Assembly (NCBI GenBank): GCA_016290135.1
Contig: JAEESW010000002.1
Span: 122,584-186,583, forward strand
Direction: 5' to 3'
DNA length: 64,000 nt
DNA from: a bacterium
GTDB taxonomy: Bacteria; UBP6; UBA1177
The notes below the pieces were generated by a model. That model saw only the letters and a program-made list of their open reading frames with translations. It did not search any database and was not told the origin of the DNA. Of this stretch, positions 29,357 through 60,549 are shown piece after piece; the stretch's first letter is position 1, and each line of letters begins with the position of its first letter. The position numbers and the translations under genes are program-made.

Positions 29357-29500
29357 CTCCTCGGGGAGTTAATCCGGCCCGAAAACTGCGTATCCGGCTG
29401 AGTCAAAGCCTCACGGTTGCGGGACAGCATCGGATTTTCACCGATTTCCGCAGGATCCGGAGATGCCAACTTAGGCATTGGGTAAAGAAAGTCAATAATT
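29357..29500 (-). ncRNA. Cobalamin (B12) riboswitch in the 5' leader of the TonB-dependent receptor gene
   Basis: Minus-strand read GCGGAAATCGGTGAAAATCCGATGCTGTCCCGCAACCGTGAGG matches the conserved GGTGAAAaTCC...GNCCCGCAACNGT core. The 3' end abuts the GAGGAGGG RBS of the receptor gene. Confidence 0.6.
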
Positions 29501-32453: not shown

Positions 32454-32471
32454 GAAAAAGCCTCCTTACGA

Positions 32472-34259: not shown

Positions 34260-34270
34260 TTATATCTCCG

Positions 34271-36649: not shown

Positions 36650-36739
36650 AGTTTCCTCCAAACAAAAGACCGCTTATTTTAATGGAAAAATAAATATAGT
36701 CAATTGTTGGGGTGTTGCGTGTGTCCAGATTTTTTTTGA

Positions 36740-39001: not shown

Positions 39002-39083
39002 AACTCTCTCCATTCACAAATGGTTTAATATTTTACAGTGAGAAATATTTCTGTCAATTCAGCCGCCGTTTCCAAAAAAAATC

Positions 39084-46337: not shown

Positions 46338-46742
46338 TTATTTCCCGAATTCGAAAACGCCTGAAAAAATATCGGATAAAACAAGATCCTGTTCGACCTG
46401 TTTCGTGTCGCTGTTGACTAAAATGACGCGCATTTTCGGGTTGAAATCAGCTAAGACCTGCCTGCATATCCCGCAGGGAAATACCGCTTTTCCGTTGAGG
46501 ACTGAGGCGATGACTATTGCTTCAAAATCCCTGTATCCAGCCGTAATTGCTGAGAAAAGCGCTGTTCTTTCTGCGCAGTTTGTTGCTCCGAAAGAGGAAT
46601 TTTCGACGTTGACCCCGGTGAAGATCGTTCCGTCAGTCGTTACGACCGCCGCTCCTACTGCGAAATTGGAATAAGGCGCATAGGCGTTTTTCCTCACTTC
46701 GAGCGCGGAGGAAACTGCTTTTTCAAATATTTCCTTTTTCAT
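46338..46742 (-). CDS. cdd: Cytidine deaminase
   Basis: Zinc-ligand motifs CAER and PCGICRQ. Confidence 0.8.
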   Translation of the reverse strand: MKKEIFEKAVSSALEVRKNAYAPYSNFAVGAAVVTTDGTIFTGVNVENSSFGATNCAERTALFSAITAGYRDFEAIVIASVLNGKAVFPCGICRQVLADFNPKMRVILVNSDTKQVEQDLVLSDIFSGVFEFGK

Positions 46743-47578
46743 TTGTCCTCTAAGACCAAAGAGATAAAGCGTTTCATGAAGGCTGAGAAGATCTTTTCTG
46801 CTTTTGCCGCGTTTTCGCTTACTTCTTCGTGTGAAAGCGGGTTCATAGAAAGTCCCGCCGCCTTGTTCGAGATGAAACTGATGCCCGAAACTTCGATCCC
46901 TGCGTGTTTTGCCGCGATGACCTCGGGAACAGTCGACATTCCTACCGCGTCGGCGCCGAGAGTCGCAAGCATCCTCACTTCGGCAGGAGTTTCGTAGGTC
47001 GGCCCCGTCAAAGCGATGTAAACTCCTTCTTTGAGCGAGATCCCGTGTTCCATCGCCGCTTTCTGCATGAGTATTGCCATTTTGCGGCTGTATGCGCTCG
47101 ACATGTCGGGAAAGCGCGGACCGAGATCGTCTTTGTTCTTTCCGATGAGCGGGTTCGTTCCCATCATGTTTATGTGGTCGCGGATTATCATAAAGTCGCC
47201 CGCGTCAAAGTTCCTGTTGATGCCGCCGGCTGCGTTCGTTACGACGAATTTCTTTATTCCGAGCAAAATCAGGGTCCGCAGCGGAAAAACGACCTCTTCC
47301 ATCGAATAACCCTCGTAATAGTGGATCCTCCCCTGCATGATCCAGAAGTTTTTGCCCGAAAATTCATCTTTCGCAAGGATAAGTCTCCCTTTGTGACCTG
47401 CGACTGTGGAAGCCGGAAAATCGGGGATCTCGCTATACGGAACGACTAAAAGCTGTTTTGCATTTTCGGCGAAAGCACCGAGCCCGCTGCCCAAAGTTAT
47501 TAGCAGTTCAGGCATCTCGAGATTCTTTTCCGTCACAAGATTCCTGATGTAGGAAGCTGCATTTCTCAATCTTTCCAT
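46739..47578 (-). CDS. Purine nucleoside phosphorylase, PNP/MTAP family (PunA-type)
   Basis: Start at MERLRNAASYI (GGAGGA upstream). Motifs ITLGSGLG and MSTVPEV. ATGA overlap with cdd. Confidence 0.7.
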   Translation of the reverse strand: MERLRNAASYIRNLVTEKNLEMPELLITLGSGLGAFAENAKQLLVVPYSEIPDFPASTVAGHKGRLILAKDEFSGKNFWIMQGRIHYYEGYSMEEVVFPLRTLILLGIKKFVVTNAAGGINRNFDAGDFMIIRDHINMMGTNPLIGKNKDDLGPRFPDMSSAYSRKMAILMQKAAMEHGISLKEGVYIALTGPTYETPAEVRMLATLGADAVGMSTVPEVIAAKHAGIEVSGISFISNKAAGLSMNPLSHEEVSENAAKAEKIFSAFMKRFISLVLEDK

Positions 47579-47635
47579 GGTTTCCTCCGTAAAAAAGTCG
47601 AAAAATTTTAGTGAAAGCAAAAAAAGAGTCAAAAT

Positions 47636-50600
47636 TTACTGCAAGACGAGCGTCTTGTATTTTCCGCCGAAACAGCTTGAAACGTCATTGATTTTATTTA
47701 AGCATTTTTTGCAGTTTCTGTTGTCGTATTCATCAAAATCCCCTTCTTCGTCGTAAAAGACGATCTCTGACCTGGAGGCAGCGCACTGCACGCTCTGATC
47801 CGATGCAACAGAAAATGTTCTTCCGCTGTTGTATGCTATCTTAAGTTTCGTGCCGGATGCAAAGTTGTGGGTCTCTGCGGCACATGAATGTTCCACATCA
47901 AGGCATATGTTTATGATATTGCAGTCAAAAGTGTGGCTGTGGTGCTCATTTTTAAAAAACACGAAATCGCCTTTGACCGTAAAATTATTCTGATAATTTT
48001 TGACAGCATAAACTGAATCATCCACCTTTTCGACACCGTCGCAGACCGAGGGGATCTCGGCATTCAGAGTCAGAGTGTAATCGTCTGCAGCAAGGCAGCC
48101 AGGCGCATCGTAAGAGACTCTCAGCGCATTGTTCCTGAAATCGAGCACCGCACTGTCGGCAGTTTCGTTGGAAGAAAGCAGGCAGTAGAGGAATGCGTTT
48201 GCGGAAGATCGAGTAAACTTTTTGACATAGCTGCTGCCGTCAGAAAAAGTTATTTTGATCTTCGCATGTCTGTACTGCCCGGGGGTGTCGAACTGAAGGC
48301 TTGATGAAAAGATAGTCTCCAGTGCAGATACGGGATTTTGATAACTTTTGCTTGAAACAAGTTTTTCTGTGTTGTCTTGAAGGACTCCGTTAAGGTATCT
48401 GCCGTAGAGATAAACTTCTGCCTTCGAGATTTCGGCCATTTTTCCTGATTTCGCCGTGACTCCGATCTTGAACAAGTCTCCCGAATGGAGGAACTGCCCT
48501 TTATGCGCATCGAGGGAAAGATCGAGATCGGCCATGTCAAAAAATTTGAATTCGGCCACATCCGTCCTTTTTGTAGTGGAAGAACTGCTTTCGACCGAGA
48601 CTGTGTAATAGCCGCTTCCCGAAAGCACCGAAGGGAGTATGTCGCTGTTGTTCGAACAATTCGCCGAAAAACCCGAATTCCCCTGTTTTGTTATCGTGCA
48701 TTTGTAATCGACTCCGCTTTTCGTTTCCCACCAGAGATAGGATTTGCTGTTGCTCGTAAAGAATTTTTCATTCAAATTTACTCTTAACGGTTCGACCGCA
48801 GCAAAATCCATCTGTATCGCAAGTGACCTTTCCGAACGGTTCCCGACCTCGTCGAAGGCCGTTATTGTGAAATTGTTGAGGCCGTGGACGCTCCCTTCCA
48901 GACTGCAGTAAAATTTGTTGCAGTTTCCCTGATATTCACCTGATTCCAGATTCGGCACATAGAAACAGCTTTTTATCCAGCCGGCTTCAGACGATTGTAT
49001 AAAAACACTCAAATCTTCAGAGGCGGAGAAATTGTCTTCATAACTAAGCAGGATCTGCGGATTTCTTGGCCCTACTATCAGATATCCTCCGTTGTTGCAG
49101 TTGGGTGAATCGAGGCACGGCTTTAGCATCGGCCAAGTCTCCACACATTCGGTAAAAACAGAATTTTCACCGTCGTAGGCGATGAAACTCGGCGGACGAC
49201 TGTCTATAAAGACAACTCCGAGAGGTTCGCTGAAATCACTGTTCGAGCAGTTGCCGACGGAATCACACACCGAAACAGAGCCCAGACATGCCACGACTTC
49301 ATCATCATTCACTGTCGTGAGCAGATTGAAAAAATCGAGACTCTCCTGCGCCGGAACATATCCTTCTCTCTTCTCCTGTGAGAAAGTACCGCCCAAAACA
49401 CCGCATGAGACCTTGAGTGCCCACTTGTCGATATCTTCATCAGGATCTACGAGCGAGACTGTAAAATAGTTTTTGCTGGTGACACTGTTTTTCAAAAGGA
49501 CACGGCCGTCCGATTCGACCCTGACGACAGGAACTTCCGGCGGAGTCGTATCGATCCTGAAAGAACCGTAGAGAGTAGAGCGGTTCCCCGCATGGTCGGC
49601 TGCCGAAAGGGTGATCTTGTAAAGTCCGTCAGCCGCACTGCCGGAATATCCGGCATCGGAGAGCATTTCCGCGAACTGTCCGGAAGAAAGCGCACATTCA
49701 CCGGCAGAACAGCTTTCGTATGCCTCTTCAAAGACGACGACCTCCTCCTCTTCCCACTTGGAGATCGTAAGTTTGATATTTTCGATCATACTGTCTGAAA
49801 CGTTCCATGAAACGGCGGCATCTTCGATCTTTACCGTTCCTTCAGGAGAGTCGAGATGCAGGAGAGGTTTTTTGCTGTCGAGAAAAACAGTCACCTCCTT
49901 TTCACTGACATTGTAGGCGATATCCTGCGCAGAAACAGAGAACAGAAGCTGCTTTTCTATCTGGACACCGTCATCGCCGGCATACTCCGCAAGCATGGCA
50001 AATTCACGGATTTCCCCCGAAAGACCGCCGTTTTCAATGTTCTGAGGCTCGATCCTTTTCACTCTGAAGACAAAATCGGGATCTTTACTTTTCAGCGAGA
50101 CGGAATCCAGATCGCTAAAAGTGCCCTCGCGCGGAGAAACTCTGAATTTAAGGAGAAAAGCCCCTGCAAAATGAGGGATCAGCCCTTGCTGAGGATCATA
50201 CTCCGCAAATCCGCTTTTCGTGTAAAAACCGAGATCTCCCGAAACTTCGGCTTCGTCAGCATTTTCTGTTCCGAAAAGGTCGTTGAAACCGATAATTTCC
50301 AATTTCGGGCCTGCTGAATCGACCGGCACCGGAACGCTTTCAGCAGGAAAGAGGAACTGGTCGGAATTTGATGCGATGTTTCCTACGACACTGCCCAGCT
50401 GATTAAAGACAGTTTTGTTGAAAGTACTTGAGAGGAATCTTTTTACGGAAAGGGCGTAGTAATACCTGAAAAAATTGGCGTCGATCGCTGTTTTTCCCCC
50501 GTCTTCGCCGAAAAAGAGCTGCACTTCACCGTTTTTTCCGTCAAAGACCGTGTCTCTGTAGTCTTCATGCAGAAGCCTCAGAATATTGGAGACATCGTAG

Positions 50601-52501
50601 ATCCCGTGTTCCGAGCCTATATCCGTCTCCATAAAATAGGCAAGATACTCAAGGCCTGCAAGCAGGATGAAATATTTTGTCCTGCTGTCTGCGGCATTTG
50701 TATTCCAGGGCTCTTCATTCCACTCAAAAGCGTGGCTGAGATGCTGCAAAAGATGTTCTGAAACAGTGCTCCACAACTCTTCATCCGGAACATTTCCGGA
50801 ATTTCTGCGGCTTGTGAAAATATAACTCCCGACTGTAGTAAGCGGTGTGACAACGATCGCGTCATCATTCACAGGGACGAACACTGCCGACAAAGTGCCG
50901 TTGAACCGTTTCGTTCCGCCGTTTTCCGAAACGACAGGTTCGTAGTTCCCGCCTGAAACAGTGACGGTGCACACCTGCCCCAGCTTGACTTTGATCTCGT
51001 TTCCCGCCGAAGGAAGATCATCGCTTTTCCTGCTGACCGCAGCATCACCGCAAGAGACCGAAACACTCTCGAAATCATTGAGAGGATTCGTTACGAACGC
51101 TTTTATCCCGACCGAAACAGTGTTCCTGCTGTAAAACGGGAACGATGCTTTATACTTTTTCGTATTTACCGTGGTTTCACATTCAAGAATGTTCTTTCCG
51201 TCCGGAAGTTTTTCGGTATCCACCACCGCTTTATACTGATAGTTGGAACTGCTCATGTTTTCCGTCTTATATCCTTCAAGAGAGCAGGAAAGATCTTCGA
51301 CTGCGTATCTTTTGTGCGAGGCCTCGACCTTTATATCGATGCTGTTTCTCGCCGGCGAATCCTCGCTTCCGGTAGGATCCAGCGTTCCGTGCCTGTAAAA
51401 AACGGCGCTGACGGAAGGGGCGTCGTTGTTGACTGTTATCGTTTTCACGGCACTCTCGAGAGTTATGCCGTTGCTTGCCTCACAGCGGATGACGACCTCT
51501 TTTTCCTCTTCGATATTTTCAGTAGTGAAACTCCCTTTAAAAAATGCCTTTTCTTCATCTTTGTCGGCAAGTTTTTCACCGTCTGCAAAACAGTTCAGCG
51601 TTACGATCATGTTTTCAGGTCCCGCTTTCGCTTCGACAGCGACTGCACCGCTGAAATAGTCCGGCTCGGCTCCCTTGTTTCCTTCAGGATAAACTTCTAT
51701 CTCTATCGAGACTCTGCCTTTTTCTGCATCGGCTCCTCCTAAAAAGGCGGCATCGGAATTCCTTATCTTTTCACTCCACTCTTTCAGTTCCGCAGCCGAA
51801 AACTTTCCGCTCACCTCACTCAGAAAATCGCCGAGCAGCCCTTTCATAAAAGCCGCACCGACAGATGCGCTCCCGAATTTTGCATACGTGGAACCGTTGA
51901 TGATGTTGTCGTCCTCAAGATCGCCATAGAGCAGATCCAGCAGATTTTCGGTAGAAAACTGAGTCTCAGGCTGAGTAGCATTAGCGGCCGAAACTGTCCC
52001 GGCGATCTTTGCAAAAGCCTGCTGCCACAACCAGCGTTTCGTAGCATCGGTAAGGGAACTTTGAAGTTCCGGGAAGGCGTCTCCGGCGATATCGAGATAT
52101 TCGAACCATTCGCTACAAGAAGTCTCCGACCTGTATTTCTCAATAAAGGTAGAAAGAAAATCGACAACGGCGACAATATTTTTTTCATTCACCGCCTTGA
52201 CAGTGCCTTCACTGCATCCGTTCCACGCAACATCTACATCCGACGAGACCAGGGCTACTGTCCCTCCGCAGACTTTAACCTTGAGTTCTCCGATACTGCG
52301 CACCGCTCCAAAGCTGACAGATCCGCTCTCGTCAGTCTTTCCGGACAAAACGGTCCCTTCTCCGCCTGAAACTTCCACAGACGCGTTTTTCTGCACGGAG
52401 AGCACCGTCAGATCGAACTCAAGTATGCCGCTGTCAGGCCTTTTGCCGTCGCAGGAAAAAAGAACAGCTCCAAGGATAAAAAAACAAAAAAACTTTTTCA
52501 T
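47636..52501 (-). CDS. Giant (1621 aa) lipoprotein / surface protein, last gene of the T4SS-like operon
   Basis: Lipobox GAVLFSC. No recognisable catalytic domain. ATGA overlap with the upstream OM beta-barrel gene. Confidence 0.5.
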   Translation of the reverse strand: MKKFFCFFILGAVLFSCDGKRPDSGILEFDLTVLSVQKNASVEVSGGEGTVLSGKTDESGSVSFGAVRSIGELKVKVCGGTVALVSSDVDVAWNGCSEGTVKAVNEKNIVAVVDFLSTFIEKYRSETSCSEWFEYLDIAGDAFPELQSSLTDATKRWLWQQAFAKIAGTVSAANATQPETQFSTENLLDLLYGDLEDDNIINGSTYAKFGSASVGAAFMKGLLGDFLSEVSGKFSAAELKEWSEKIRNSDAAFLGGADAEKGRVSIEIEVYPEGNKGAEPDYFSGAVAVEAKAGPENMIVTLNCFADGEKLADKDEEKAFFKGSFTTENIEEEKEVVIRCEASNGITLESAVKTITVNNDAPSVSAVFYRHGTLDPTGSEDSPARNSIDIKVEASHKRYAVEDLSCSLEGYKTENMSSSNYQYKAVVDTEKLPDGKNILECETTVNTKKYKASFPFYSRNTVSVGIKAFVTNPLNDFESVSVSCGDAAVSRKSDDLPSAGNEIKVKLGQVCTVTVSGGNYEPVVSENGGTKRFNGTLSAVFVPVNDDAIVVTPLTTVGSYIFTSRRNSGNVPDEELWSTVSEHLLQHLSHAFEWNEEPWNTNAADSRTKYFILLAGLEYLAYFMETDIGSEHGIYDVSNILRLLHEDYRDTVFDGKNGEVQLFFGEDGGKTAIDANFFRYYYALSVKRFLSSTFNKTVFNQLGSVVGNIASNSDQFLFPAESVPVPVDSAGPKLEIIGFNDLFGTENADEAEVSGDLGFYTKSGFAEYDPQQGLIPHFAGAFLLKFRVSPREGTFSDLDSVSLKSKDPDFVFRVKRIEPQNIENGGLSGEIREFAMLAEYAGDDGVQIEKQLLFSVSAQDIAYNVSEKEVTVFLDSKKPLLHLDSPEGTVKIEDAAVSWNVSDSMIENIKLTISKWEEEEVVVFEEAYESCSAGECALSSGQFAEMLSDAGYSGSAADGLYKITLSAADHAGNRSTLYGSFRIDTTPPEVPVVRVESDGRVLLKNSVTSKNYFTVSLVDPDEDIDKWALKVSCGVLGGTFSQEKREGYVPAQESLDFFNLLTTVNDDEVVACLGSVSVCDSVGNCSNSDFSEPLGVVFIDSRPPSFIAYDGENSVFTECVETWPMLKPCLDSPNCNNGGYLIVGPRNPQILLSYEDNFSASEDLSVFIQSSEAGWIKSCFYVPNLESGEYQGNCNKFYCSLEGSVHGLNNFTITAFDEVGNRSERSLAIQMDFAAVEPLRVNLNEKFFTSNSKSYLWWETKSGVDYKCTITKQGNSGFSANCSNNSDILPSVLSGSGYYTVSVESSSSTTKRTDVAEFKFFDMADLDLSLDAHKGQFLHSGDLFKIGVTAKSGKMAEISKAEVYLYGRYLNGVLQDNTEKLVSSKSYQNPVSALETIFSSSLQFDTPGQYRHAKIKITFSDGSSYVKKFTRSSANAFLYCLLSSNETADSAVLDFRNNALRVSYDAPGCLAADDYTLTLNAEIPSVCDGVEKVDDSVYAVKNYQNNFTVKGDFVFFKNEHHSHTFDCNIINICLDVEHSCAAETHNFASGTKLKIAYNSGRTFSVASDQSVQCAASRSEIVFYDEEGDFDEYDNRNCKKCLNKINDVSSCFGGKYKTLVLQ

Positions 52502-53124
52502 ACTTTCCCCCAGTTATAGTAATTCACAAAGAATGACGCACCGAAAAATCCGAACAGATCAAGCGAATTGTCATGCGGAGACCACTTGTAAAGCACCTGT
52601 GCCGAGAGTATTATCCACTCCCATACTCTGAACTGGAGATCGAACCCGGCCGCGATGACGCCGTTTACGCAAGCATAGTCATCCTTTCTGTAACTCGCGA
52701 CTTTCAGACCTCCTTCCGCAATAAATTCGATATTTGAAAATGTTTCGACTTTGAATCCTCCTCCTGCAACGATATGCGGCGAGAAAAAAGTCCCCGGAAA
52801 GAGATTGTATCTTGCAAGGACGAGCGTCTGGACCCGCCAGTAATCAAAGTATTCTTTTCCTTTTATATCCTGAAATTCCGCTTTCCTCGAAGTGTCCCCC
52901 ACCCGCGTGAATGAAGGCTGCAGACCGATGTCGAAGTTGTCGGTGAGACCAAAAAACATATTGAGACCGGCATTCCAGCTTGCATATACGACAGTGGTCT
53001 TATTGTCCGTTTTAAGCGAAAAAGGAAAAAAACCGCCGCCGCCTATATTTACCTGGAGCTCCCCTTCTTCTGCGGGAAGAGCAAAAGAAAACATAAATAA
53101 GATCAGAACTATGACTTTTTTCAT
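52498..53124 (-). CDS. Outer-membrane beta-barrel protein (OmpW/OMP_b-brl-like)
   Basis: Start at MKKVIVLILF with signal peptide. Alternating amphipathic strands; aromatic-rich C-terminus. Confidence 0.4.
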   Translation of the reverse strand: MKKVIVLILFMFSFALPAEEGELQVNIGGGGFFPFSLKTDNKTTVVYASWNAGLNMFFGLTDNFDIGLQPSFTRVGDTSRKAEFQDIKGKEYFDYWRVQTLVLARYNLFPGTFFSPHIVAGGGFKVETFSNIEFIAEGGLKVASYRKDDYACVNGVIAAGFDLQFRVWEWIILSAQVLYKWSPHDNSLDLFGFFGASFFVNYYNWGKV

Positions 53125-53125
53125 G

Positions 53126-54175
53126 CTATTCCAGATAAACAAAGAAAGATGTTCCTGCCGGAACTCTGTATTCCTGCCTCATTTTGTTAGCCTCTTCCTG
53201 CTTTGCCAGTTCCGAAGCGGCCGGATTCACGGTGTTCGCGGCGGTCGTTCCCGCAGTACTGCCCGCACTTCCGGCAAGTCTTGTGACCACGGCTCCAGCC
53301 GTTTTGGTAAATCCCTGCTTTACTTCCGATTTTATATTCTCATCGGCGATATCGGTAACTTCCGATTCTATTCCCGGATCCTTTCCCGAAACAGCAAACC
53401 CTTTGACCGAAAATTCGTCATTCCCGATGATGAGTTTTGAAAAGGCAAGCTGCGTCCTCTTGTTGACGAAACTTTTGGCCGACCCGAAGAATCTCGCCCC
53501 TTTCGGGATCCCGCCTGCTTCCTCGAGAACAGTCGCAACGACCGTTGACTGCGCAGTCGAACGTATCGAAAAATCGAGTTTGACCTTGACTTTGACATCG
53601 TGCAGAGCAAATATTTTTTCTTTTCCGTCCGCACCTTTCCTCCCTTTGACGAACACACCGCCGCCTGGATTTTCTCCGCCGGGAACGAAGTGTCTCTTTC
53701 TCCCTGTCTGACTGCCGCCTGCAGCCGCAGCATCGCTAAGTTTGGCATAGGCTTCAAGGATCTCTCTGTCTTTCTCCTCGTTTCTGTTTCTTCTCTTCAC
53801 CGCAGGATTTCTTGAGGGGACAGGCGCTCTCTTCACATCTTCTTCTTTCACTTCCGTCTCAAAATTTTTTCTGTGTTTCGCATTCATCGCCGATTTTATA
53901 TCTCCCACGACTCTGCCGCGTGCCAGCTCGCTGAAGTCATTGAATCCGGCTTCACCGCTATCGCCGGCTTCCGTTCCGCCGCCCTTTTTGAAGAGAGCCG
54001 CAGCAGATAGTGCAAGGAGAAGAAAAAGAACCGAAAGAGAGGCGAAAAATATGACTTTCCTGCGCACAGCAGAATATTTAGTTTTCCTTTCTTCACACTG
54101 AAAGGAGAGCTTGTTTTCATCCTTACCGCTTTCCGAGAGGATCTCAAGCGGCGACTTTTCCTTTTCTTCTCTCAA
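53126..54175 (-). CDS. VirB10/TrbI-like T4SS component
   Basis: Basic cytoplasmic N-terminus, single TM, Pro/Lys-rich spacer, C-terminal beta-domain ending ...YRVPAGTSFFVYLE (TrbI-like). Confidence 0.5.
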   Translation of the reverse strand: MREEKEKSPLEILSESGKDENKLSFQCEERKTKYSAVRRKVIFFASLSVLFLLLALSAAALFKKGGGTEAGDSGEAGFNDFSELARGRVVGDIKSAMNAKHRKNFETEVKEEDVKRAPVPSRNPAVKRRNRNEEKDREILEAYAKLSDAAAAGGSQTGRKRHFVPGGENPGGGVFVKGRKGADGKEKIFALHDVKVKVKLDFSIRSTAQSTVVATVLEEAGGIPKGARFFGSAKSFVNKRTQLAFSKLIIGNDEFSVKGFAVSGKDPGIESEVTDIADENIKSEVKQGFTKTAGAVVTRLAGSAGSTAGTTAANTVNPAASELAKQEEANKMRQEYRVPAGTSFFVYLE

Positions 54176-55119
54176 AACGACACCTTAAGTTCAAGTTTGC
54201 GCTTTTTTCCGGCGCTTTCGTTCACTTCGATTATGTATTCCCTGGAATAGTCTTCGTCGCTTATTTTAAAGGCTATACCGCCGCTTACTATCTCATCGAA
54301 CTGCATCGAGAATTTGTCGATGTGATACTGCGCATTATCGATCTCTACTTTTCCCCCTTTTGTCGAATAGATCTTCACCGATTCGATGTGGAAACGCTGT
54401 CTGTAACGGTTTTTCACCGAAAAATTGACCGTGACGAGAGCATCTTTACCGATTTTGCAGATGCGGTCGCTGCGCAGAAAAACGAGTTCTTCCTCGGTGC
54501 GTGCCGAATAACTGCTGCACTGGAAAAATTCGCTGAAAGATTTCGCCATCATCCCTATCATGCTTTTATCTATCTCTTTTTTTATCTCCTTCATCCTCTT
54601 CTCATACTTCCCTTCGAGCTCTTTCCTCAACATTTCCAGATGTTTATTGACCGCCTTATTCGAAGTTTCCCATTCGGGATACGAAAAAATTATCCTGTTG
54701 CTCGCCTCTTCGGAAGGACGTATGACGAAATTGAAAATGAAGGCCTGTCCCGAATTTATCTTGAACTGAACATTGGAACTGAGCCCGTACATCAGAGCCT
54801 CTTCAGGCGCCTCGTTGAACATGAGTCCCCACACTTTCATCTTCAGAGGCTCAGTTTCGACCTCGATCTTGAGAAGTCCGGCGTCTCCGACTGTCGGAGT
54901 TTCCGTGAGTGAAATGTTTTCCGGGAATTCAAAGACGAACACCTCTCCTAAAGCGATGTTCACTGTCCTGTAGATCACAGTGTCGCTGTTAGTGATCGTG
55001 ATGACGGCGACTTTTTCGGTGATCGGGATGAATTTTGCTTTTTCTTCTTCCCTGTCAAGATCTCTGCCGAACACGCCAAACACATCAAATAAAGCTAATA
55101 AGATCAGAAGTTTTTTCAT
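54172..55119 (-). CDS. VirB9/TrbG-like periplasmic/OM T4SS component (tentative)
   Basis: Signal peptide, roughly 300 aa beta-rich protein, positioned between the VirB8-like and VirB10-like genes with ATGA overlaps. Confidence 0.35.
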   Translation of the reverse strand: MKKLLILLALFDVFGVFGRDLDREEEKAKFIPITEKVAVITITNSDTVIYRTVNIALGEVFVFEFPENISLTETPTVGDAGLLKIEVETEPLKMKVWGLMFNEAPEEALMYGLSSNVQFKINSGQAFIFNFVIRPSEEASNRIIFSYPEWETSNKAVNKHLEMLRKELEGKYEKRMKEIKKEIDKSMIGMMAKSFSEFFQCSSYSARTEEELVFLRSDRICKIGKDALVTVNFSVKNRYRQRFHIESVKIYSTKGGKVEIDNAQYHIDKFSMQFDEIVSGGIAFKISDEDYSREYIIEVNESAGKKRKLELKVSF

Positions 55120-55856
55120 TCTGCACGCTCTTTTTCATCTTCAATGAGATATTCTTTTCCGTTTTCTGTAAGATAGGCCCGAAGTTCTCTGAAATCTTCG
55201 AAACTCTTTCCCGTGTAGAAATCGACAAGAAGCCCGTCGGGAGAGAGTTCCAGCGACACCGGAACAACAAGGAGGAGCGCCGAAAACCAGACTAAACTTT
55301 TCCTCTTTTCGTTTTCACCCGAATAATCGACGGCATTCCCGAAAGTCATCTCTCCCAGACCTTCGACAGTCAGCGATGACCCGACAGAAAAGCTCCCTTT
55401 TACGACTTTGAGTTTCGTGAGTGAAAACTTTGTCTCAAAATTCTTGTTTTTCCATGTGTCTATCTTTTCTTTGTGGACCGACTTGTCAAGCAGGATCTGC
55501 CTGAATTTCGGAGTCAGCATATTGTAGGCTTCTTTAAGATCCTCGTCGATATTGGGGCTCACTCCGTCAAATTTGCCGATGAAATCAGAAATGAACCGAT
55601 GGACTCTTACCAGATTGGTAGAAGTCTCGAGCGTTTCAGGACCATGAAAGACGATCCTTTTTCCCTCTTTGTCGAATGCGATGACGGGAGTCGGCCTCAT
55701 TGCGGCAGACCATGCAAAAAGAAGCGCTGCCAAAGCGATGAAAAACATCATCAGGCAGAAGATCAGGGCGAGTATGCGGAAAGACCTCCGCATTCTTTCA
55801 ATATCGCGATACTTTATTGTATCGAAAAAATCTGAAGCGTCATTTTTTCTCATCAT
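55116..55856 (-). CDS. VirB8-like bitopic T4SS component (tentative)
   Basis: Short cytoplasmic N-terminus, one TM (ILALIFCLMMFFIALAALLFAW) and a roughly 190-aa periplasmic domain. Operon position. Confidence 0.4.
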   Translation of the reverse strand: MMRKNDASDFFDTIKYRDIERMRRSFRILALIFCLMMFFIALAALLFAWSAAMRPTPVIAFDKEGKRIVFHGPETLETSTNLVRVHRFISDFIGKFDGVSPNIDEDLKEAYNMLTPKFRQILLDKSVHKEKIDTWKNKNFETKFSLTKLKVVKGSFSVGSSLTVEGLGEMTFGNAVDYSGENEKRKSLVWFSALLLVVPVSLELSPDGLLVDFYTGKSFEDFRELRAYLTENGKEYLIEDEKERAE

Positions 55857-56743
55857 TTCATCCTGTAGCGGTCAATACGGGCCATTGCTATCGTTTTTAT
55901 ATTTGAAACTGTGCTTTTGAGCTGATCTGAACAAGCCGCCTTTGAGGCCCAAAAAGGGATCGAGACAATGCCCAGACCTGTAAAGACAAGGCCTGACAAT
56001 ACTGTGACAGTGTCTCTGTCCATTCTGAAACTGTACGGGCATGAGCATATTTCGGAAGCGAGTTTCATAACTTCGACCTGCGCCTTTCCTGTGATGAAAA
56101 TAAAGACAGCATAAAGCACGGGCCACAGAGCGAACTCCGCAATAGAGCGGAAAAAACTTCCGACCGAAGCGAAACCCTGATCCGGGAAAGCCGGAAAGAC
56201 CAGTGCAAAGCACAGTCCGACCATGTTCAGCGACATCAAAGTCCCCCAGCCGTAAAAAAAGACCACCTCTTTCGCGCTCCACACGAAAAGCATAAGAATA
56301 AAAACTGCAAGTTTGCAGAAATACTGGAAATAGAAAGAGGTTATGAGTGCCGTTCCCGCTTCTCCCAAAAGCGGATCCGAAAAGCGCGGGCACTGATCCG
56401 GGATATTTCCTGAAAGTCCATCAGTCATCGAGAGATTCGATGAATAGAGGGAAAACGCTTTGAAAAATTCCTCGTCAAGTTCGGCAACTGTCGGAAAATC
56501 GTATGTTACAAGCATTGTCTTTTCGATAAAACCGGGCAGATAAAGATAAAGCAGTATGATCACCGCCGCCTTCCAAGCAACTCCCAAAAAATCAGGTTTT
56601 TCCGATTTCTGGATTTTAAAGACTTCAGTTACGAAACTTATGGCAAGACCTACCGAGATGACAATGAAGACCACGCTCCAGAGCCAGCCTGCGCCAGCTG
56701 ACTCAAGCAGTGTCTTCGGGTTGTAACAGATGTTGAGATTCAT
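55853..56743 (-). CDS. VirB6/TrbL-like polytopic inner-membrane T4SS component (tentative)
   Basis: Five or more TM helices, about 296 aa, immediately downstream of the VirB4-like ATPase. Confidence 0.4.
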   Translation of the reverse strand: MNLNICYNPKTLLESAGAGWLWSVVFIVISVGLAISFVTEVFKIQKSEKPDFLGVAWKAAVIILLYLYLPGFIEKTMLVTYDFPTVAELDEEFFKAFSLYSSNLSMTDGLSGNIPDQCPRFSDPLLGEAGTALITSFYFQYFCKLAVFILMLFVWSAKEVVFFYGWGTLMSLNMVGLCFALVFPAFPDQGFASVGSFFRSIAEFALWPVLYAVFIFITGKAQVEVMKLASEICSCPYSFRMDRDTVTVLSGLVFTGLGIVSIPFWASKAACSDQLKSTVSNIKTIAMARIDRYRMK

Positions 56744-59085
56744 ATTTTGTCCCCTAAAAAATCTTTTATCGCATCCATAACGAAAAGATCCTTCCTGTAT
56801 GCAAGCATCGCCGCTTCGGCACAGGCGTCGATAAGATCCAGTCCGCGGATCCCGGCAAATCTCTCGAGCAGCCGGTTTTCCTCTTTGTCACTTGTAGCCA
56901 CCGCATAATCGAACGGCGAAAGTTCTATTCTGACGACTTCAGATTCGAGCTCGGCTCCTCTCTGCGTCCTGAAAAGGGCGGTCGAATACTCCCCTTTCAC
57001 TGTTCTCAGGCTTCCGAAAGCCTCCTTTTCAGCCTCACTCAGACCGAAATCTTCCGCGATCACCCTTTTTGCCTCCTCATCGTTCGCATGGCTCAAAAAT
57101 ATAGTTGTCGTCGTGTTGATCTTTATTTTGGAAGAGAGCGCCGCCTCTTTGAAACTGAGGAAATTCTGCGTGACAGTCCAGACTCCGGTGTTGTATTTTC
57201 TCGCCGTGGCAAAGAGTTCTTCGATAAGATCGGCAAGACGCGGATCTTTGATAAGCTGCGCCGCTTCGTCAAAAACTATGAAGCTGTTCGTTATTTCGAA
57301 AGCGCTCCGTTTCGCCTCCTGGATAACGATAAAGGTGAGAAGTTCCTTCAGTTTTTCACTGAGCCCGGATATTCCCTGCAGATCGTAGATGACAAAAGGC
57401 TGTTTCCCGTAATCGACTGTCGATCTTCCGTTGATCGTTTTTGACACCGGATCATCCAGAAAACCGCAGAGGAGCCTGCGGATGATCTCAGCTTTTTCCG
57501 TATCTTCGTCTTCGACAAAATCGGGCAGATCGCCGAGCACAGGCTCTTCTTTGGCCGCATACATGCTGCGTACCGCCTTTGAAACGATGTTCCTGAAAAG
57601 ATCGGCGTTCATGTTTTTTTCGCGGATCTCAAGAACGATGTCGAGAATAGTACCGATAAAATTGAGGGCGGAACTGTTCCACTCACCGTTGACACAGACT
57701 TCGCTGCGCTTTGGGAAAGGGTTTATAACGATTTTTCCGCTCGGATCTATCGGAATGAAAACGCCGCCGTAAAGTTTCACCATTTTCAGATAGCTTGAGT
57801 TTTCAGCCCCCGCAAAATCAACGATGAAGATGCGCCCCGGGAAGTTTTTGTCGGAATTTATGTTCGGAAAAAAGGTGTGTGCAATAAGAGTGTTCACAGT
57901 CACCGACTTTCCGCTTCCCGAGCAGCCGAAAACAGAGCCGTTCTTGTTGTTGCGTTTTGAAGAGCCGGCGTCGAAGCCGTATATTTCACCGAAACGGTTC
58001 CGCAAAAAAAGAGGAGATCTTCCGTCAAAATCCCCGTGTCCGTGTCTTGCAGCCGGGAACATATCGGTAAAATTGGCGCTGAGGGCTCTGATCTGACGCT
58101 CCGAAAGGCTCATCAAAGACGGAAGCGACTTAAAAAACTCGAGATCGTGTCCCCATGTCTCTTCTTCAAAAAAGAAACCTCCGTTTTTCATGAGGAGCGA
58201 TATCTCTTCAGCACGTTTTTCAAGAAGCAGAGGATCGCTTTCTGAAACAACGATCTTTGCAGAGAGGAAGCCGATCTTGTGTTTCGAAACGGTAAGGAGG
58301 TTCATCAGCTCGTCTGTTTCTTTCGCGTTTTTTGCTGCCCCCCTGCCGCTCGTCGCAATGTAAAAACGCTCTTTTGCCTCGAGGGAAAGGAGTTCTCTCG
58401 ACTGCGGAAGCACCGTGAACGAGACTGAATATGAAAAGTTTCCCGAAAAAGTGTCGATGATGCGCGGGATCATAAAAGGAAAAGTCTCTTTCGGCATGAA
58501 TTTGAGCGAAAGGACTTTGCAGAAAGTGCCGCCGACTTTGAAATATTCAGGAGTCGCCGAGCACTGTTTTTGAATGAGTTCCTCCCTGATGCTCATTTCG
58601 GGGTGGATCTTCATCTCTCCGCCGAATGAGACAAGTTCAAACAAAAGTTCCTTGATCTCTGAAGTATCCGACTGCCGCGCGTTCATCTCAAAACTTTGGA
58701 CAAGATTTTTGTGATAGTTCATATCGGGCGCATCCGCCGGGGCTCCGCTTTTCGGCATATCGCTTGAGACCACGAAAAAACTGCGGCTTTTTTTGACCCC
58801 TTTTCTCCGCAGGAATCCGAGCCTCTGCCTTATCACAGGCTCGCTTTCAGAAGAGCAGCGTTCTTCAACAAGTTCGTCTTTGCCGCGGATAACAGTAAAG
58901 AATTCGACTGTCGTTCCCTCCTTTACTTCACGCATGAAAAACGAGTTTGCCCGTTGAAGCGCCGGTGAAAGAAAGTAGCAGTCCGCCCCTTCGGTCTCCC
59001 AGACGGAAAAGCGCCGCATTGAAGAAGTGAGAATAAAGTTGTCTTCAACTGCGGCTATTTTCAGCATTTCAAAGATGCTCTTCAT
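56740..59085 (-). CDS. VirB4/TrbE/CagE-family T4SS ATPase
   Basis: 781 aa. Walker A GCSGSGKS and Walker B IVFDEAAQ in the C-terminal half. Family size and domain order as in VirB4. Confidence 0.65.
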   Translation of the reverse strand: MKSIFEMLKIAAVEDNFILTSSMRRFSVWETEGADCYFLSPALQRANSFFMREVKEGTTVEFFTVIRGKDELVEERCSSESEPVIRQRLGFLRRKGVKKSRSFFVVSSDMPKSGAPADAPDMNYHKNLVQSFEMNARQSDTSEIKELLFELVSFGGEMKIHPEMSIREELIQKQCSATPEYFKVGGTFCKVLSLKFMPKETFPFMIPRIIDTFSGNFSYSVSFTVLPQSRELLSLEAKERFYIATSGRGAAKNAKETDELMNLLTVSKHKIGFLSAKIVVSESDPLLLEKRAEEISLLMKNGGFFFEEETWGHDLEFFKSLPSLMSLSERQIRALSANFTDMFPAARHGHGDFDGRSPLFLRNRFGEIYGFDAGSSKRNNKNGSVFGCSGSGKSVTVNTLIAHTFFPNINSDKNFPGRIFIVDFAGAENSSYLKMVKLYGGVFIPIDPSGKIVINPFPKRSEVCVNGEWNSSALNFIGTILDIVLEIREKNMNADLFRNIVSKAVRSMYAAKEEPVLGDLPDFVEDEDTEKAEIIRRLLCGFLDDPVSKTINGRSTVDYGKQPFVIYDLQGISGLSEKLKELLTFIVIQEAKRSAFEITNSFIVFDEAAQLIKDPRLADLIEELFATARKYNTGVWTVTQNFLSFKEAALSSKIKINTTTTIFLSHANDEEAKRVIAEDFGLSEAEKEAFGSLRTVKGEYSTALFRTQRGAELESEVVRIELSPFDYAVATSDKEENRLLERFAGIRGLDLIDACAEAAMLAYRKDLFVMDAIKDFLGDKI

Positions 59086-59359
59086 TTTTTACTCCGATCA
59101 GATCCCTCTGCTGGCGGCAGTAGCGGATCTTTCCACCGCCGGACATTCTCAGAACAAAGATCCACCAATCCGGCGAACCCGAAAAAATTTTTTCACGGAT
59201 AAGAAAAGTCACCGTAAAGACCACAGCCGGGATAACAAGAAGAAGAAAGATGTCCTTCAAGACAGCACCTGAAAAAAAGAAGAGTGTCATGACCGCCGCC
59301 TGCCCTTTGTCGACAAAAGTCTGCTTTGTTCCCAAAACTGAAAAAACTTTCATATCCAA
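59069..59359 (-). CDS. VirB3-like small membrane protein (tentative)
   Basis: 96 aa, one or two TM helices. Overlaps the start of the VirB4-like gene, as VirB3-VirB4 pairs often do. Confidence 0.4.
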   Translation of the reverse strand: MDMKVFSVLGTKQTFVDKGQAAVMTLFFFSGAVLKDIFLLLVIPAVVFTVTFLIREKIFSGSPDWWIFVLRMSGGGKIRYCRQQRDLIGVKNEEHL

Positions 59360-59673
59360 CCGGCAATGATGCTCAGGATCGTTGAAAAGGCTGCAAGTCC
59401 CGCACCGGCTCCCAGGATCTTCAAGGCGTCCGACCAGATATTCTGATCTTTGTTGATATACCTGAAAAAAAGTGAAACTATCGCTCCTCCAAGCCCGCCG
59501 TAGATCCCGATGTATCTCGCGACATCAAAAACGGTGTCAGCCATCTCCTGGAATTTGGATTTTATCCCGCTCGTGTCGGCAGCCGCTAATACAAATTCAG
59601 GAAAAAGCAAAACAGAGACTGCAAAAACTAACAAAAAGTAAAGCTTAATCTTTCTCAATGCATCACCTCTCAA
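59350..59673 (-). CDS. VirB2/TrbC-like pilin (tentative)
   Basis: 107 aa. Signal-peptide-like N-terminus, then two hydrophobic segments with Gly-rich IYGGLGGAI and GAGAGLAAF. First gene of the operon. Confidence 0.4.
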   Translation of the reverse strand: MRGDALRKIKLYFLLVFAVSVLLFPEFVLAAADTSGIKSKFQEMADTVFDVARYIGIYGGLGGAIVSLFFRYINKDQNIWSDALKILGAGAGLAAFSTILSIIAGWI

Positions 59674-59843
59674 GTATCAAAATTAACAAATATGCAAATA
59701 AACATTTACTCAAAAAATACATTTTTTCAATTTTTTTATTCAATATTTAAAATAAAACATTGAAATCAAGCAAAATCGTTAAGATTTTAACAAAAATATA
59801 AGGTCAATAAAACAAAATAAACATTTCACACTCAACAATTTTA

Positions 59844-59873
59844 TTGACTTTAAATTTCGAAAACATATATTAT
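59844..59873 (+). promoter_or_regulatory. Sigma70-like promoter TTGACT-18-TATTAT within a roughly 80% AT, 255-bp divergent intergenic region
   Basis: Hexamers read directly upstream of the GTG start (GGAGG RBS) of the XRE/S24 repressor gene. Confidence 0.45.
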
Positions 59874-59928
59874 AAGTAGATTTTAGCGAACGCTCATTTC
59901 AAAAACAGGCGGGGATCGGAGGTACCTC

Positions 59929-60549
59929 GTGACAAATATTGCCGAAAGGATAAAAACTTTACGCCTTATGTTTCAGCTCAATCAAAAGGATATGGCTGAC
60001 GAAACAGGCTTTTCGCAGTCTTATATCTGCGGGATCGAAAAAGGGATAAAAACACCTAACGCAGACTTTCTTCTCGCCCTTTCAGTAAAATTCGGGCTGA
60101 GTTTTTCATGGCTCGTAAACGGCTTCGGACCGATGCTTTCAGAAAGCGGCAAAAAAAATGCGAAATATCTCATCAAGGAAAAAGCTCCGCTCTACCTCTC
60201 TTCTGCAACCGTCGGCAGCATCGTCAGCGGGATAGAAGAAGGAAAAATGTTTCTCTTTGAAGTCGGCTGCGACAATATGGAACCGACTTTCATGAAAGGG
60301 GATAAAATCGTGATAGATCCTACCGGCAAAGAACTGCAGGACCGCGGGACATACCTTTTTGACATAAATTCACGAAAAACGCTCAAACGCTGCTTTAAGA
60401 TCGGAGAACACACTTTCAAACTTACAAACGACAAGCCCGCCATAAAAAACAACGATCTCATTTTCGACAGTTCGATGGAATGTCTGGGGCGCGCCGTATG
60501 GATGATCCGTGAAATAGACAAAGGACACGCAAACATCTCCACGATTTGA
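59929..60549 (+). CDS. CI/LexA-like repressor: XRE-family HTH + S24 peptidase-like C-terminal domain
   Basis: HTH QKDMADETGFSQSYICGIEKG. C-terminal GDKIVID...RKTLKRCF segment like the S24 self-cleaving domain. Confidence 0.65.
   Translation: MTNIAERIKTLRLMFQLNQKDMADETGFSQSYICGIEKGIKTPNADFLLALSVKFGLSFSWLVNGFGPMLSESGKKNAKYLIKEKAPLYLSSATVGSIVSGIEEGKMFLFEVGCDNMEPTFMKGDKIVIDPTGKELQDRGTYLFDINSRKTLKRCFKIGEHTFKLTNDKPAIKNNDLIFDSSMECLGRAVWMIREIDKGHANISTI

What the first reader, a model, noticed from the sequence alone, without database searches (positions are those of the whole stretch)
47636..59673. Minimal T4SS-like apparatus (VirB2/3/4/6/8/9/10 homologue set) without VirB11, coupling protein or relaxase, transcriptionally fused to an OM barrel and a 1621-aa lipoprotein
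Nine minus-strand genes are joined by 4-17-nt overlaps and read in canonical VirB order. They are a pilin-like 107-aa protein, a 96-aa VirB3-like protein, a 781-aa Walker A/B ATPase of VirB4 size, a polytopic VirB6-like protein, a bitopic VirB8-like protein, a signal-peptide VirB9-like protein and a TrbI/VirB10-like protein with a Pro-rich spacer. The operon then continues into a beta-barrel OMP and a giant lipoprotein whose start shares an ATGA with the OMP stop. A set of B2, B3, B4, B6, B8, B9 and B10 with no B11, D4 or relaxase is exactly the composition of the Helicobacter ComB DNA-uptake T4SS rather than a conjugative system. The fusion to a giant surface protein is not a described arrangement. 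This could be a competence-type or surface-protein-export T4SS variant.
Basis: partly seen in the sequence, partly recalled or inferred. Interest (0 to 1): 0.85.

Follow-up and report, generated by a model that had tools for sequence, protein, structure and literature searches.

The report
Chromosomal coupling-protein-less T4SS with giant lipoprotein
An uncultured rumen bacterium carries, fixed in its chromosome and under purifying selection, the nine-gene channel-and-pilus half of a previously undescribed type of conjugation machine, including a small outer-membrane protein and a 1621-residue lipoprotein, but without the coupling protein its plasmid-borne relatives have, so it has probably been repurposed.

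Summary
Nine co-oriented, abutting or overlapping minus-strand genes (47636-59673) encode a very divergent diderm type IV secretion system.

Support for each part:
- VirB4 is solid.
- VirB2, VirB8, VirB9 and VirB10 are supported by orthologue profiles, transitive HMM links or predicted fold.
- VirB3 and VirB6 are supported by position and topology only.

No T4CP, VirB11, relaxase, VirB1 or integrase lies anywhere in the 64-kb window, and the flanks are housekeeping genes.

The ComB reading is not supported. ComB does need a VirB11, encoded elsewhere (PMC13395361). The real relatives of this locus are conjugative elements. The same nine genes, including the ~208-aa outer-membrane protein and the giant lipoprotein, sit next to a T4CP, SLT, ParB, ArdC, SSB and topoisomerase in metagenomic elements, and partly on Myxococcus plasmid pYRE. 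So the "fused" OMP and lipoprotein are integral parts of an undescribed mating-apparatus class, not cargo.

The window belongs to a monophyletic (100/100), T4CP-less clade seen in at least four chromosomal contexts, with dN/dS of 0.03-0.15.

Best reading: a domesticated mating-pair module that works without a coupling protein. Its actual function (adhesion or pilus, DNA uptake, or conjugation with partners encoded elsewhere) is unresolved.

Verdict: a new variant of a known kind, of moderate to high interest.

The parts
59350..59673 (-). VirB2/TrbC-type pilin precursor (107 aa as listed; probable start TTG 59658, giving 102 aa). It has a signal peptide and two hydrophobic helices.
   Evidence: Pfam TrbC E 0.011, sub-threshold. 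An hhalign profile of orthologues against the L025 pilin gives 91.6%, E 8e-7, and that pilin hits PF04956 TrbC. Topology.
59069..59359 (-). VirB3-like small inner-membrane protein (probable ATG 59353, ATGA overlap with the pilin stop).
   Evidence: No family hit. Has a TM hairpin and overlaps the VirB4 gene. Homologous to the equivalent gene of T4CP-bearing L025 (hhalign 97.7%, E 2e-12). The VirB3 assignment rests on position and topology only.
56740..59085 (-). VirB4-family ATPase (781 aa), Walker A GCSGSGKS, Walker B FIVFDE, no TM segment.
   Evidence: TIGR00929 VirB4_CagE E 2.6e-40 and TraC-F-type E 7e-36, both far below their cut-offs. PF19044 E 1e-15 and PF03135 E 7e-5. The closest plasmid protein is 27% identical.
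55853..56743 (-). VirB6-like polytopic inner-membrane protein (296 aa, about 6 TM segments).
   Evidence: No family hit. TM prediction. Homologous to the 510-aa polytopic protein of L025 (hhalign 97.1%, E 7e-11). Assignment is by position and topology.
55116..55856 (-). VirB8-like bitopic protein (246 aa).
   Evidence: Pfam VirB8 E 0.025 for the window protein. Eight of 9 orthologues hit VirB8, best E 5e-7. N-terminal TM. A PDB sequence profile found nothing.
54172..55119 (-). VirB9-like periplasmic/outer-membrane core protein (315 aa). It is two beta-sandwich domains joined by a ~50-residue helix and is the most conserved protein of the set.
53126..54175 (-). VirB10/TrbI/TraM-like protein (349 aa). 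It has an N-terminal TM, a charged linker (not Pro-rich) and a conserved C-terminal domain.
   Evidence: Orthologues weakly hit Transposon_TraM and TrbI. Of 10 distant relatives from an exhaustive phmmer search, 8 hit TrbI and/or TraM, and two reach the gathering score.
52498..53142 (-). Class-specific small outer-membrane protein (probable ATG 53124, 208 aa). It has a signal peptide and is probably a small beta-barrel.
   Evidence: No family or PDB hit. Alternating hydrophobicity over the whole mature chain, 20% aromatic. Conserved next to the giant protein in all relatives, including conjugative ones (39-41% identity, E 1e-38 to 1e-46). dN/dS 0.06-0.10.
47636..52501 (-). Class-specific giant lipoprotein (1621 aa). 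It has a conserved lipobox followed by a C-[DEG]-[GS]-[KD]-R-P motif. The N-terminal ~750 aa is conserved: a duplicated beta-sandwich plus helical-bundle module with two Ig-like domains between. The C-terminal half is a fast-evolving Ig-like array with conserved Cys pairs.
59674..59928 (.). AT-rich divergent control region between the regulator gene and the pilin gene.
   Evidence: Sequence. Promoter-like hexamers and many imperfect repeats, nothing decisive.
59929..60549 (+). Divergently transcribed HTH (XRE-type) regulator with an S24-like C-domain that lacks the nucleophile serine. Probable repressor of the operon.
   Evidence: Pfam HTH_19, HTH_3 and Peptidase_S24. An HTH-only regulator sits at the same divergent position in T4CP-bearing L024/L025, 32-39% identical. 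The D-N-M-E-P motif replaces G-D-S-M-x-P in 4 of 4 orthologues. The gene is present in only some chromosomal loci.

Best explanation
The region is the complete mating-pair-formation (channel plus pilus) module of a previously undescribed class of diderm type IV secretion system. It is fixed in the chromosome of an uncultured rumen bacterium (UBP6 / 'Spirochaetales' MAGs) and has lost its coupling protein and other DNA-transfer genes.

Shown:
- A VirB4 ATPase, a TrbC/VirB2-type pilin, VirB8-, VirB9- and VirB10/TraM-like proteins, and VirB3- and VirB6-like membrane proteins are encoded in one tight operon.
- The operon also encodes a small outer-membrane protein and a 1621-aa lipoprotein.
- All nine have homologues, in the same arrangement, in elements that also carry a T4CP, an SLT transglycosylase, ParB, a recombinase, ArdC, SSB and a topoisomerase.
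- The T4CP-less copies form one clade, occupy ordinary chromosomal positions and are under purifying selection.

Inferred:
- The ancestor was conjugative.
- The OMP and the giant Ig-rich lipoprotein are the outer-membrane and surface part of the apparatus. The lipoprotein's conserved N-terminal module would be docked at the VirB9/VirB10 core (a VirB7-like role). Its variable Ig-like array would be exposed as a partner-cell or substrate adhesin, analogous to F TraN or pCF10 PrgB.
- In this lineage the module still assembles the envelope-spanning complex and pilus, powered by VirB4 alone. It is used for a coupling-protein-independent task: contact or adhesion, possibly with DNA uptake or exchange.
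- The HTH regulator encoded divergently upstream probably represses it.

For: Same nine genes beside conjugation genes: L024 and L025 carry a T4CP (PF02534, PF10412, PF12696), SLT, ParB_N and Phage_integrase. L022 carries SSB, a topoisomerase, ArdC, ParA and resolvases. pYRE carries a T4CP, ArdC, ParAB, TopA, a B9-like protein and a giant protein with the helical module.

No such genes near the chromosomal copies: the 64-kb window and the 10-kb flanks of loci in at least four contexts.

Vertical inheritance: the HutH-DAGK flank is shared by most of L001-L009, and there is no compositional island.

Monophyly of the T4CP-less loci: 100/100, with T4CP-bearing lineages as sister and as deeper branches.

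Purifying selection on all nine genes: dN/dS 0.03-0.15.

Lipoprotein features: invariant lipobox, conserved N-terminal module, variable C-terminal half, and Ig/adhesin-type folds.

Diderm host: a TonB-dependent receptor and a Wza-like exporter are in the window.

Precedent for a lineage-wide chromosomal, relaxase-less T4SS: Patescibacteria (PMC12102498).
Against: - Whole genomes of this clade could not be searched. A T4CP, VirB11 or relaxase encoded elsewhere is not excluded, and ComB11 shows that this does happen.
- No relaxase was recognised even in the element-borne relatives. The class may use an unrecognised relaxase, so 'no relaxase' carries little weight.
- The roles proposed for the OMP and the lipoprotein are by analogy only. 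No complex model, localisation or expression data exist.
- VirB3 and VirB6 identities are positional.
- The module's synonymous divergence is 2-3 times that of its flanks. That does not fit simple vertical descent and may mean the module is still exchanged between lineages.
- The tree is neighbour-joining on 16 sequences with a single outgroup.
Confidence: 0.55

Rival explanations
1. It is a split but still conjugative system. The chromosomal module is a working mating-pair apparatus, and its T4CP and relaxase are encoded elsewhere in the genome or on a co-resident mobilisable element. It then serves as a helper for DNA transfer.
For: All relatives outside the clade are on elements with a T4CP or plasmid functions. 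ComB11 shows that essential T4SS ATPases can be unlinked. The module's dS is 2-3 times that of its flanking genes, which fits continuing exchange of the module between lineages. The HTH regulator arrangement is retained from the mobile relatives.
Against: No T4CP lies within 10 kb in any of at least four independent chromosomal contexts, nor within 47 kb on one side in the window. VirB1-like SLT, ParB, recombinase, ArdC and SSB are all missing too. The clade is monophyletic and positionally stable, unlike ICEs.
Confidence: 0.22
2. It is a ComB-like competence system. The T4CP-less T4SS imports environmental DNA into the periplasm, as in Helicobacter pylori.
For: It is chromosomal, lacks a T4CP and relaxase in cis, and retains B2, B3, B4, B6, B8, B9 and B10 equivalents. 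The comB operons likewise lack VirD4.
Against: There is no specific sequence relationship to ComB, and the relatives are conjugative. ComB needs a VirB11 ATPase, and none is in the window. ComB has no OMP or giant-lipoprotein pair. No ComEC, ComEA, ComH or DprA is near the locus. [quoted passage not shown]
Confidence: 0.12
3. It is a dedicated export or display machine for the giant lipoprotein, with the T4SS core and the OMP moving it across the outer membrane.
For: The lipoprotein and OMP genes are invariably co-transcribed last in the operon. A conserved C-x-x-K-R-P motif follows the lipid cysteine and could be a sorting signal. The C-terminal half is variable and looks surface-exposed.
Against: The same pair is present in the conjugative relatives, where the machine's substrate is DNA recruited by a T4CP. 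No T4SS is known to export lipoproteins. The lipoprotein's most conserved part is N-terminal, which is what a docking module would look like and not what a passenger would look like.
Confidence: 0.06
4. It is a decaying remnant of an integrated conjugative element with no present function.
For: T4CP, SLT, recombinase and partition genes have been lost.
Against: All nine ORFs are intact in more than 15 species-level genomes. dN/dS is 0.03-0.15 for every gene. The tight translational coupling is preserved. The clade spans 51-99% ATPase identity.
Confidence: 0.03

Closest known systems
Uncharacterised conjugative modules: metagenomic elements L024/L025 (GCA_024712465.1; ENA k141_7545256) and L022, and Myxococcus stipitatus plasmid pYRE (NZ_CP102771.1)
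   Same: L022, L024 and L025 have homologues of all nine genes in nearly the same order, including the ~208-aa OMP and the giant lipoprotein. pYRE shares VirB4 (27%), the VirB9-like protein (hhalign 96.5%), a TraM-like VirB10 and a 1605-aa protein with the same helical module.
   Different: Those carry a T4CP, SLT/VirB1, ParA/ParB, a recombinase, ArdC, SSB and a topoisomerase, and the window clade has none of these. In L024/L025 the B10-like gene precedes the B9-like gene and the polytopic protein is 503-510 aa. pYRE lacks a detectable OMP homologue. None of these elements has been studied experimentally as far as the searched literature shows.
Bacteroidetes conjugative-transposon T4SS (MPF-B, CTnDOT TraE-TraO)
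   Same: The gene order and sizes are parallel: pilin, small protein, ATPase, polytopic protein, ~220-250 aa, ~420-440 aa TraM-like VirB10, ~325 aa VirB9-like, ~200 aa (L022, L024, L025). The VirB10 equivalent matches Pfam Transposon_TraM. In MPF-B, TraM is the protein that matches the VirB10 Pfam domain and TraN/TraQ are the VirB9 homologues (PMC4027160). That MPF-B has no VirB11 is from my own knowledge.
   Different: The ATPase scores 21.9 bits against Bac_Flav_CT_G, whose cut-off is 261. There are no hits to the CtnDOT TraJ, TraK, TraN or TraO families. MPF-B has no giant lipoprotein.
F-type T4SS (MPF-F: TraC, TraK, TraB, TraN)
   Same: The ATPase's second-best model is TraC-F-type, E 7e-36, and plasmid hits are annotated TraC family. 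The 315-aa protein's fold matches F TraK in the OMCC. From my own knowledge, F-type systems lack VirB11 and have a large Cys-rich outer-membrane adhesin (TraN) for mating-pair stabilisation.
   Different: The score is far below the TraC equivalog cut-off (123 against 567). No TraF/H/U/W/TrbC-type accessory genes are present. The giant lipoprotein shows no sequence relationship to TraN.
Helicobacter pylori ComB DNA-uptake T4SS
   Same: It is chromosomal, with no T4CP or relaxase, and keeps B2, B3, B4, B6, B8, B9 and B10 equivalents.
   Different: ComB needs ComB11, a VirB11 encoded elsewhere. It is split into two operons and has no OMP or giant-lipoprotein pair. There is no specific sequence affinity to this locus.
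Patescibacteria chromosomal T4SS (derived from MPF-FATA)
   Same: It is a lineage-wide, chromosomal, phylogenetically distinct T4SS that lacks a relaxase and is thought to be co-opted for another function (PMC12102498).
   Different: It is of the monoderm type, without a VirB9/VirB10 outer-membrane core, and belongs to a different VirB4 lineage. No giant lipoprotein has been described for it.

Membership tests
Type IV secretion system (VirB4-based) | VirB4-family ATPase with Walker A/B motifs and the CagE_TrbE_VirB N-domain | tested here: met
   TIGR00929 E 2.6e-40 over residues 141-723, PF03135 E 7e-5, PF19044 E 1e-15. Motifs read. All scores are below the curated equivalog cut-offs, so this is a divergent member.
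Type IV secretion system (VirB4-based) | VirB2/TrbC-type pilin | tested here: met
   The window protein is sub-threshold (E 0.011). Its orthologue profile matches the L025 pilin (hhalign 91.6%, E 8e-7), and that pilin hits PF04956. The topology is typical.
Type IV secretion system (VirB4-based) | VirB8-family bitopic protein | tested here: met
   Eight of 9 orthologues hit Pfam VirB8, best E 5e-7. The window protein itself reaches only E 0.025.
Type IV secretion system (VirB4-based) | VirB9-like outer-membrane core protein | tested here: met
Type IV secretion system (VirB4-based) | VirB10/TrbI-like core protein | tested here: met
   Transitive. Eight of 10 distant phmmer relatives hit TrbI and/or TraM, and two reach the gathering score. 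The window protein itself has no direct hit. No structure was predicted.
Type IV secretion system (VirB4-based) | VirB3 and VirB6 inner-membrane components | tested here: inconclusive
   No family hits for the window proteins or for orthologues. Only position, size and TM topology fit. They are conserved across the class.
Self-transmissible conjugative element (MPF + T4CP + relaxase) | Type IV coupling protein (VirD4/TraG/TraD) linked to the MPF genes | tested here: not met
   None in the 64-kb window or in the 10-kb flanks of the chromosomal loci (Pfam; tblastn with 3 T4CPs). The rest of the genome could not be searched.
Self-transmissible conjugative element (MPF + T4CP + relaxase) | Relaxase and integration or partition functions | tested here: not met
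   No relaxase, integrase or Par genes in the window. Caveat: no relaxase was recognisable in the T4CP-bearing relatives either.
ComB-type competence T4SS | VirB11-family ATPase (ComB11) interacting with ComB4 | tested here: not met
   No VirB11/T2SSE-family protein in the window.
ComB-type competence T4SS | Specific phylogenetic affinity to ComB and association with ComEC/ComH/DprA uptake genes | tested here: not met
   The nearest relatives are conjugative modules. No competence genes are in the window. A genome-wide test was not possible.
MPF-B (Bacteroidetes CTnDOT-type) | TraG-type ATPase (Bac_Flav_CT_G) plus TraJ, TraK, TraN and TraO families | tested here: not met
   Bac_Flav_CT_G scores 21.9 bits against a cut-off of 261. 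No hits to TraJ, TraK, TraN or TraO. Only weak TraM hits.
MPF-F (F-type) | TraC equivalog plus the F-specific TraF/H/U/W/N set | tested here: not met
   TraC-F-type scores 123 bits against a cut-off of 567. No F-specific accessory families are present in the operon.

The most novel reading that the evidence does not exclude
This would be a ninth, so far undescribed class of diderm T4SS. Its hallmark is an outer-membrane pair, a small barrel and a ~1600-1800-aa Ig-rich lipoprotein, built into the mating apparatus. In one uncultured rumen lineage the class has been domesticated into a chromosomal, coupling-protein-independent machine with a new function, such as T4SS-pilus and adhesin-mediated cell contact or DNA import. 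That would be a second independent case, after ComB, of a diderm conjugation apparatus turned to another use.
Probability: 0.35. Interest if true: 0.75.

Novelty: new variant of a known kind. Interest (0 to 1): 0.62.

Why it matters
T4SS diversity is organised around eight VirB4-based classes. This locus and its relatives match none of the class-specific models. Only the ATPase is recognisable by direct annotation, and the class is essentially absent from the 72,556 plasmids searched (one distant hit).

It adds two unexpected conserved parts to a conjugation-type apparatus: a small outer-membrane protein and a giant lipoprotein.

It also gives a natural comparison within one family between T4CP-bearing mobile versions and a T4CP-less chromosomal clade under purifying selection. 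That makes the question 'what can a T4SS channel and pilus do without a coupling protein?' directly testable, and pYRE in cultivable Myxococcus is a possible entry point.

For rumen microbiology, it marks a conserved cell-surface machine in a candidate phylum with no cultured members.

Tried and rejected
Searches that found nothing:
- Sequence-profile searches of the VirB8-like, VirB9-like, VirB10-like and OMP alignments against PDB sequences.
- Pfam on VirB3- and VirB6-like orthologues.
- Pfam on ten unannotated proteins of the element-borne relatives, looking for a relaxase.
- tblastn of the OMP against plasmids.
- Literature searches for UBP6 T4SS, for new MPF classes and for Myxococcus plasmid T4SS. 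None describes this system.

- The afdb50 fold library was unavailable.

Corrected along the way:
- My first alignments A2 and A3 mispaired the L014 genes, because there the B10-like gene precedes the B9-like gene. They were replaced by A4 and A5.

Readings rejected:
- An ICE fragment with its backbone just outside the window: the flanks are housekeeping and syntenic across species.
- A decaying remnant: dN/dS is far below 1.
- An SOS-cleavable LexA-type regulator: the S24 nucleophile Ser is replaced by Asn.
- A compositional island: GC is uniform.


Full report
**1. The observation**

Window 47636-59673 holds nine co-oriented minus-strand ORFs of 107, 96, 781, 296, 246, 315, 349, 214 and 1621 aa.
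- With the mechanical ORF starts they overlap by 4-17 nt.
- More plausible starts are a pilin TTG at 59658 behind a GAGGTGA Shine-Dalgarno, a VirB3-like ATG at 59353, and an OMP ATG at 53124, which gives the 208 aa seen in orthologues. With these, most junctions become 4-nt ATGA/TTGA overlaps or a 1-nt gap.
- The lipoprotein start and the OMP stop do share an ATGA.
- GC content is uniform with the rest of the window.
- The rest of the window encodes housekeeping and metabolic genes: nucleoside phosphorylase, cytidine deaminase, rubrerythrin, desulfoferrodoxin, TruB, Pth, tRNA-Gln, HutH, a DAG kinase, H+-PPase, a TonB receptor behind a B12 riboswitch, and others.
- There is no T4CP, VirB11, relaxase, lytic transglycosylase, integrase or partition gene.

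**2. Identity of the parts**

| Window protein | Assignment | Evidence |
|---|---|---|
| 781 aa | VirB4-family ATPase | TIGR00929 E 2.6e-40, TraC-F-type E 7e-36, PF03135 and PF19044. Every class-specific model is far below its curated cut-off. The best of 72,556 plasmids is 27% identical. |
| 246 aa | VirB8-like | Window protein marginal (E 0.025), but 8 of 9 orthologues hit Pfam VirB8, best E 5e-7. |
| 349 aa | VirB10/TrbI/TraM-like | No direct hit. An exhaustive phmmer search of 1.84 billion representatives found 37 relatives. Of the ten distant relatives scanned, eight hit TrbI and/or Bacteroides TraM over the aligned C-domain, and two reach the gathering score. |
| 107 aa | VirB2/TrbC pilin | Sub-threshold for TrbC (E 0.011). 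Its orthologue profile matches a TrbC-positive pilin of a relative (hhalign 91.6%). |
| 96 and 296 aa | VirB3- and VirB6-like | No family support. Assigned by position, size and TM topology only. |
| 214 aa | Small OM protein | Signal peptide, 20% aromatics and an alternating hydrophobic pattern throughout. This fits a small barrel, but it was not modelled. |
| 1621 aa | Giant lipoprotein | See below. |

**3. Distribution, and the turn in the argument**

The organism is an uncultured rumen bacterium filed as 'Spirochaetales' or UBP6.
- All nine genes are kept as a block in 11 species-level genomes, mostly next to the same HutH-DAGK flank.
- The block also occurs in more distant genomes with other housekeeping flanks: L012 on a 2.07-Mb contig, L020, L017, L018, and L027 on a 2.83-Mb contig.

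Further out the context changes.
- In L024 and L025 (44% ATPase identity) the same nine genes, including a 208-aa OMP and a 1673-1739-aa giant lipoprotein, are followed within 8 kb by a tyrosine recombinase, an SLT transglycosylase, a ParB-domain protein and a full T4CP.
- In L022 they lie beside SSB, a topoisomerase, ArdC, ParA and resolvases.
- Homology is shown gene by gene.
- The RefSeq plasmid pYRE of Myxococcus stipitatus, which has a T4CP, ArdC, ParAB and TopA, shares four parts. These are the VirB4, a VirB9-like protein (hhalign 96.5%), a kinase-fused TraM-like VirB10, and a 1605-aa protein carrying two copies of the lipoprotein's helical module.

None of these element genes has a homologue in the window or in the flanks of any chromosomal locus. 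The one exception is the HTH domain of the divergent upstream regulator.

**4. Evolutionary reading**

- In a VirB4 tree the nine T4CP-less loci are monophyletic (100/100). They are sister to the element-borne group, and T4CP-bearing pYRE and an ordinary conjugative outgroup branch deeper.
- The parsimonious reading is one domestication of a conjugative mating-pair module.
- All nine genes are under purifying selection, dN/dS 0.03-0.15. The locus is therefore functional and not a remnant.
- One observation is unexplained. The module's dS (1.1-1.9) is 2-3 times that of the adjacent HutH and DAGK genes (0.4-0.6) in the same genome pairs. This may reflect exchange of the module between lineages.

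**5. Mechanism**

Shown: a complete set of channel, core and pilin genes with a single ATPase, plus two class-specific outer-membrane components, in one operon.

Inferred: the machine still assembles an envelope-spanning complex and a VirB2-type pilus.
- The giant lipoprotein's conserved N-terminal part docks at the VirB9/VirB10 core, in a VirB7-like role.
- Its variable Ig array is surface-exposed as an adhesin, by analogy with F TraN or PrgB.
- Without a coupling protein the system cannot recruit DNA or protein from the cytoplasm in the usual way.
- It is therefore most likely used for a T4CP-independent task (contact or adhesion, possibly DNA uptake), unless partners are encoded elsewhere.

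**6. Comparison with known systems**

- The ComB analogy is weak. ComB requires an unlinked VirB11, ComB11 (PMC13395361), and this system has no specific affinity to it.
- Gene order and sizes in L022, L024 and L025 parallel Bacteroidetes TraE-TraO, and the VirB10 is TraM-like. MPF-B membership nevertheless fails. F-type membership fails too.
- The best conceptual precedent is the chromosomal, relaxase-less T4SS of Patescibacteria (PMC12102498), but that one is of monoderm type.
- No paper describing this class was found.

**7. Verdict**

This is a new variant of a known kind: an undescribed T4SS class with an integral OMP and giant lipoprotein, here in a domesticated, T4CP-less chromosomal form.

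The main limit is that whole genomes could not be searched for an unlinked T4CP, VirB11 or relaxase.

Noticed in passing
window 59929-60549 (+): The divergent HTH_19 regulator has a Peptidase_S24-like C-domain. The canonical G-D-S-M-x-P nucleophile motif reads D-N-M-E-P in the window and in three orthologues, so it is probably not a self-cleaving LexA/CI-type repressor. Element-borne relatives have an HTH-only regulator at the same position. Some chromosomal loci lack the gene.
   Followed up: partly
window 47636-59673 compared with 60565-63088, and L003/L006/L009: Synonymous divergence of the nine module genes (dS 1.1-1.9) is 2-3 times that of the adjacent HutH and DAGK genes (0.4-0.6) in the same genome pairs. 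This suggests module replacement by recombination or old alleles.
   Followed up: partly
L021:17486-19927 (pYRE WP_342382212) and P0245: In the Myxococcus plasmid and in one metagenomic relative, the VirB10/TraM-like C-terminal domain is fused to an N-terminal Ser/Thr protein kinase domain.
   Followed up: no
L015:5154-5732, L020:6072-6566, L024:15286-15762: Small Lcl_C (PF07603) domain proteins recur next to modules of this T4SS class in unrelated contexts.
   Followed up: no
L013/L014/L024/L025 compared with the window: The order of the VirB9-like and VirB10-like genes is inverted between the T4CP-bearing group (B10 then B9, as in CTnDOT TraM-TraN) and the chromosomal clade (B9 then B10). 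The polytopic protein there is 503-510 aa, against 296 aa in the window.
   Followed up: partly
window 29390-29449 (-) and 27173-29353 (-): A cobalamin riboswitch lies directly upstream of a TonB-dependent receptor gene. This is an ordinary B12-uptake arrangement, and it also confirms that the host is diderm.
   Followed up: no
window 46739-47632 (-): The purine-nucleoside phosphorylase gene starts 3 nt after the lipoprotein stop and may be co-transcribed here. This adjacency is not seen in the related loci, so it is not part of the module.
   Followed up: partly
window 31413-39013 (-) and 45414-46274 (+): Several sizeable ORFs (757, 595, 346 and 286 aa) have no Pfam match. A 796-aa neighbour has only a Metallophos domain.
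   Followed up: no
pYRE NZ_CP102771.1, L022, L024, L025: No recognisable relaxase was found in the visible parts of any T4CP- or plasmid-function-bearing relative, and MOB-suite types pYRE as non-mobilizable. The class may use an unrecognised relaxase family.
   Followed up: partly
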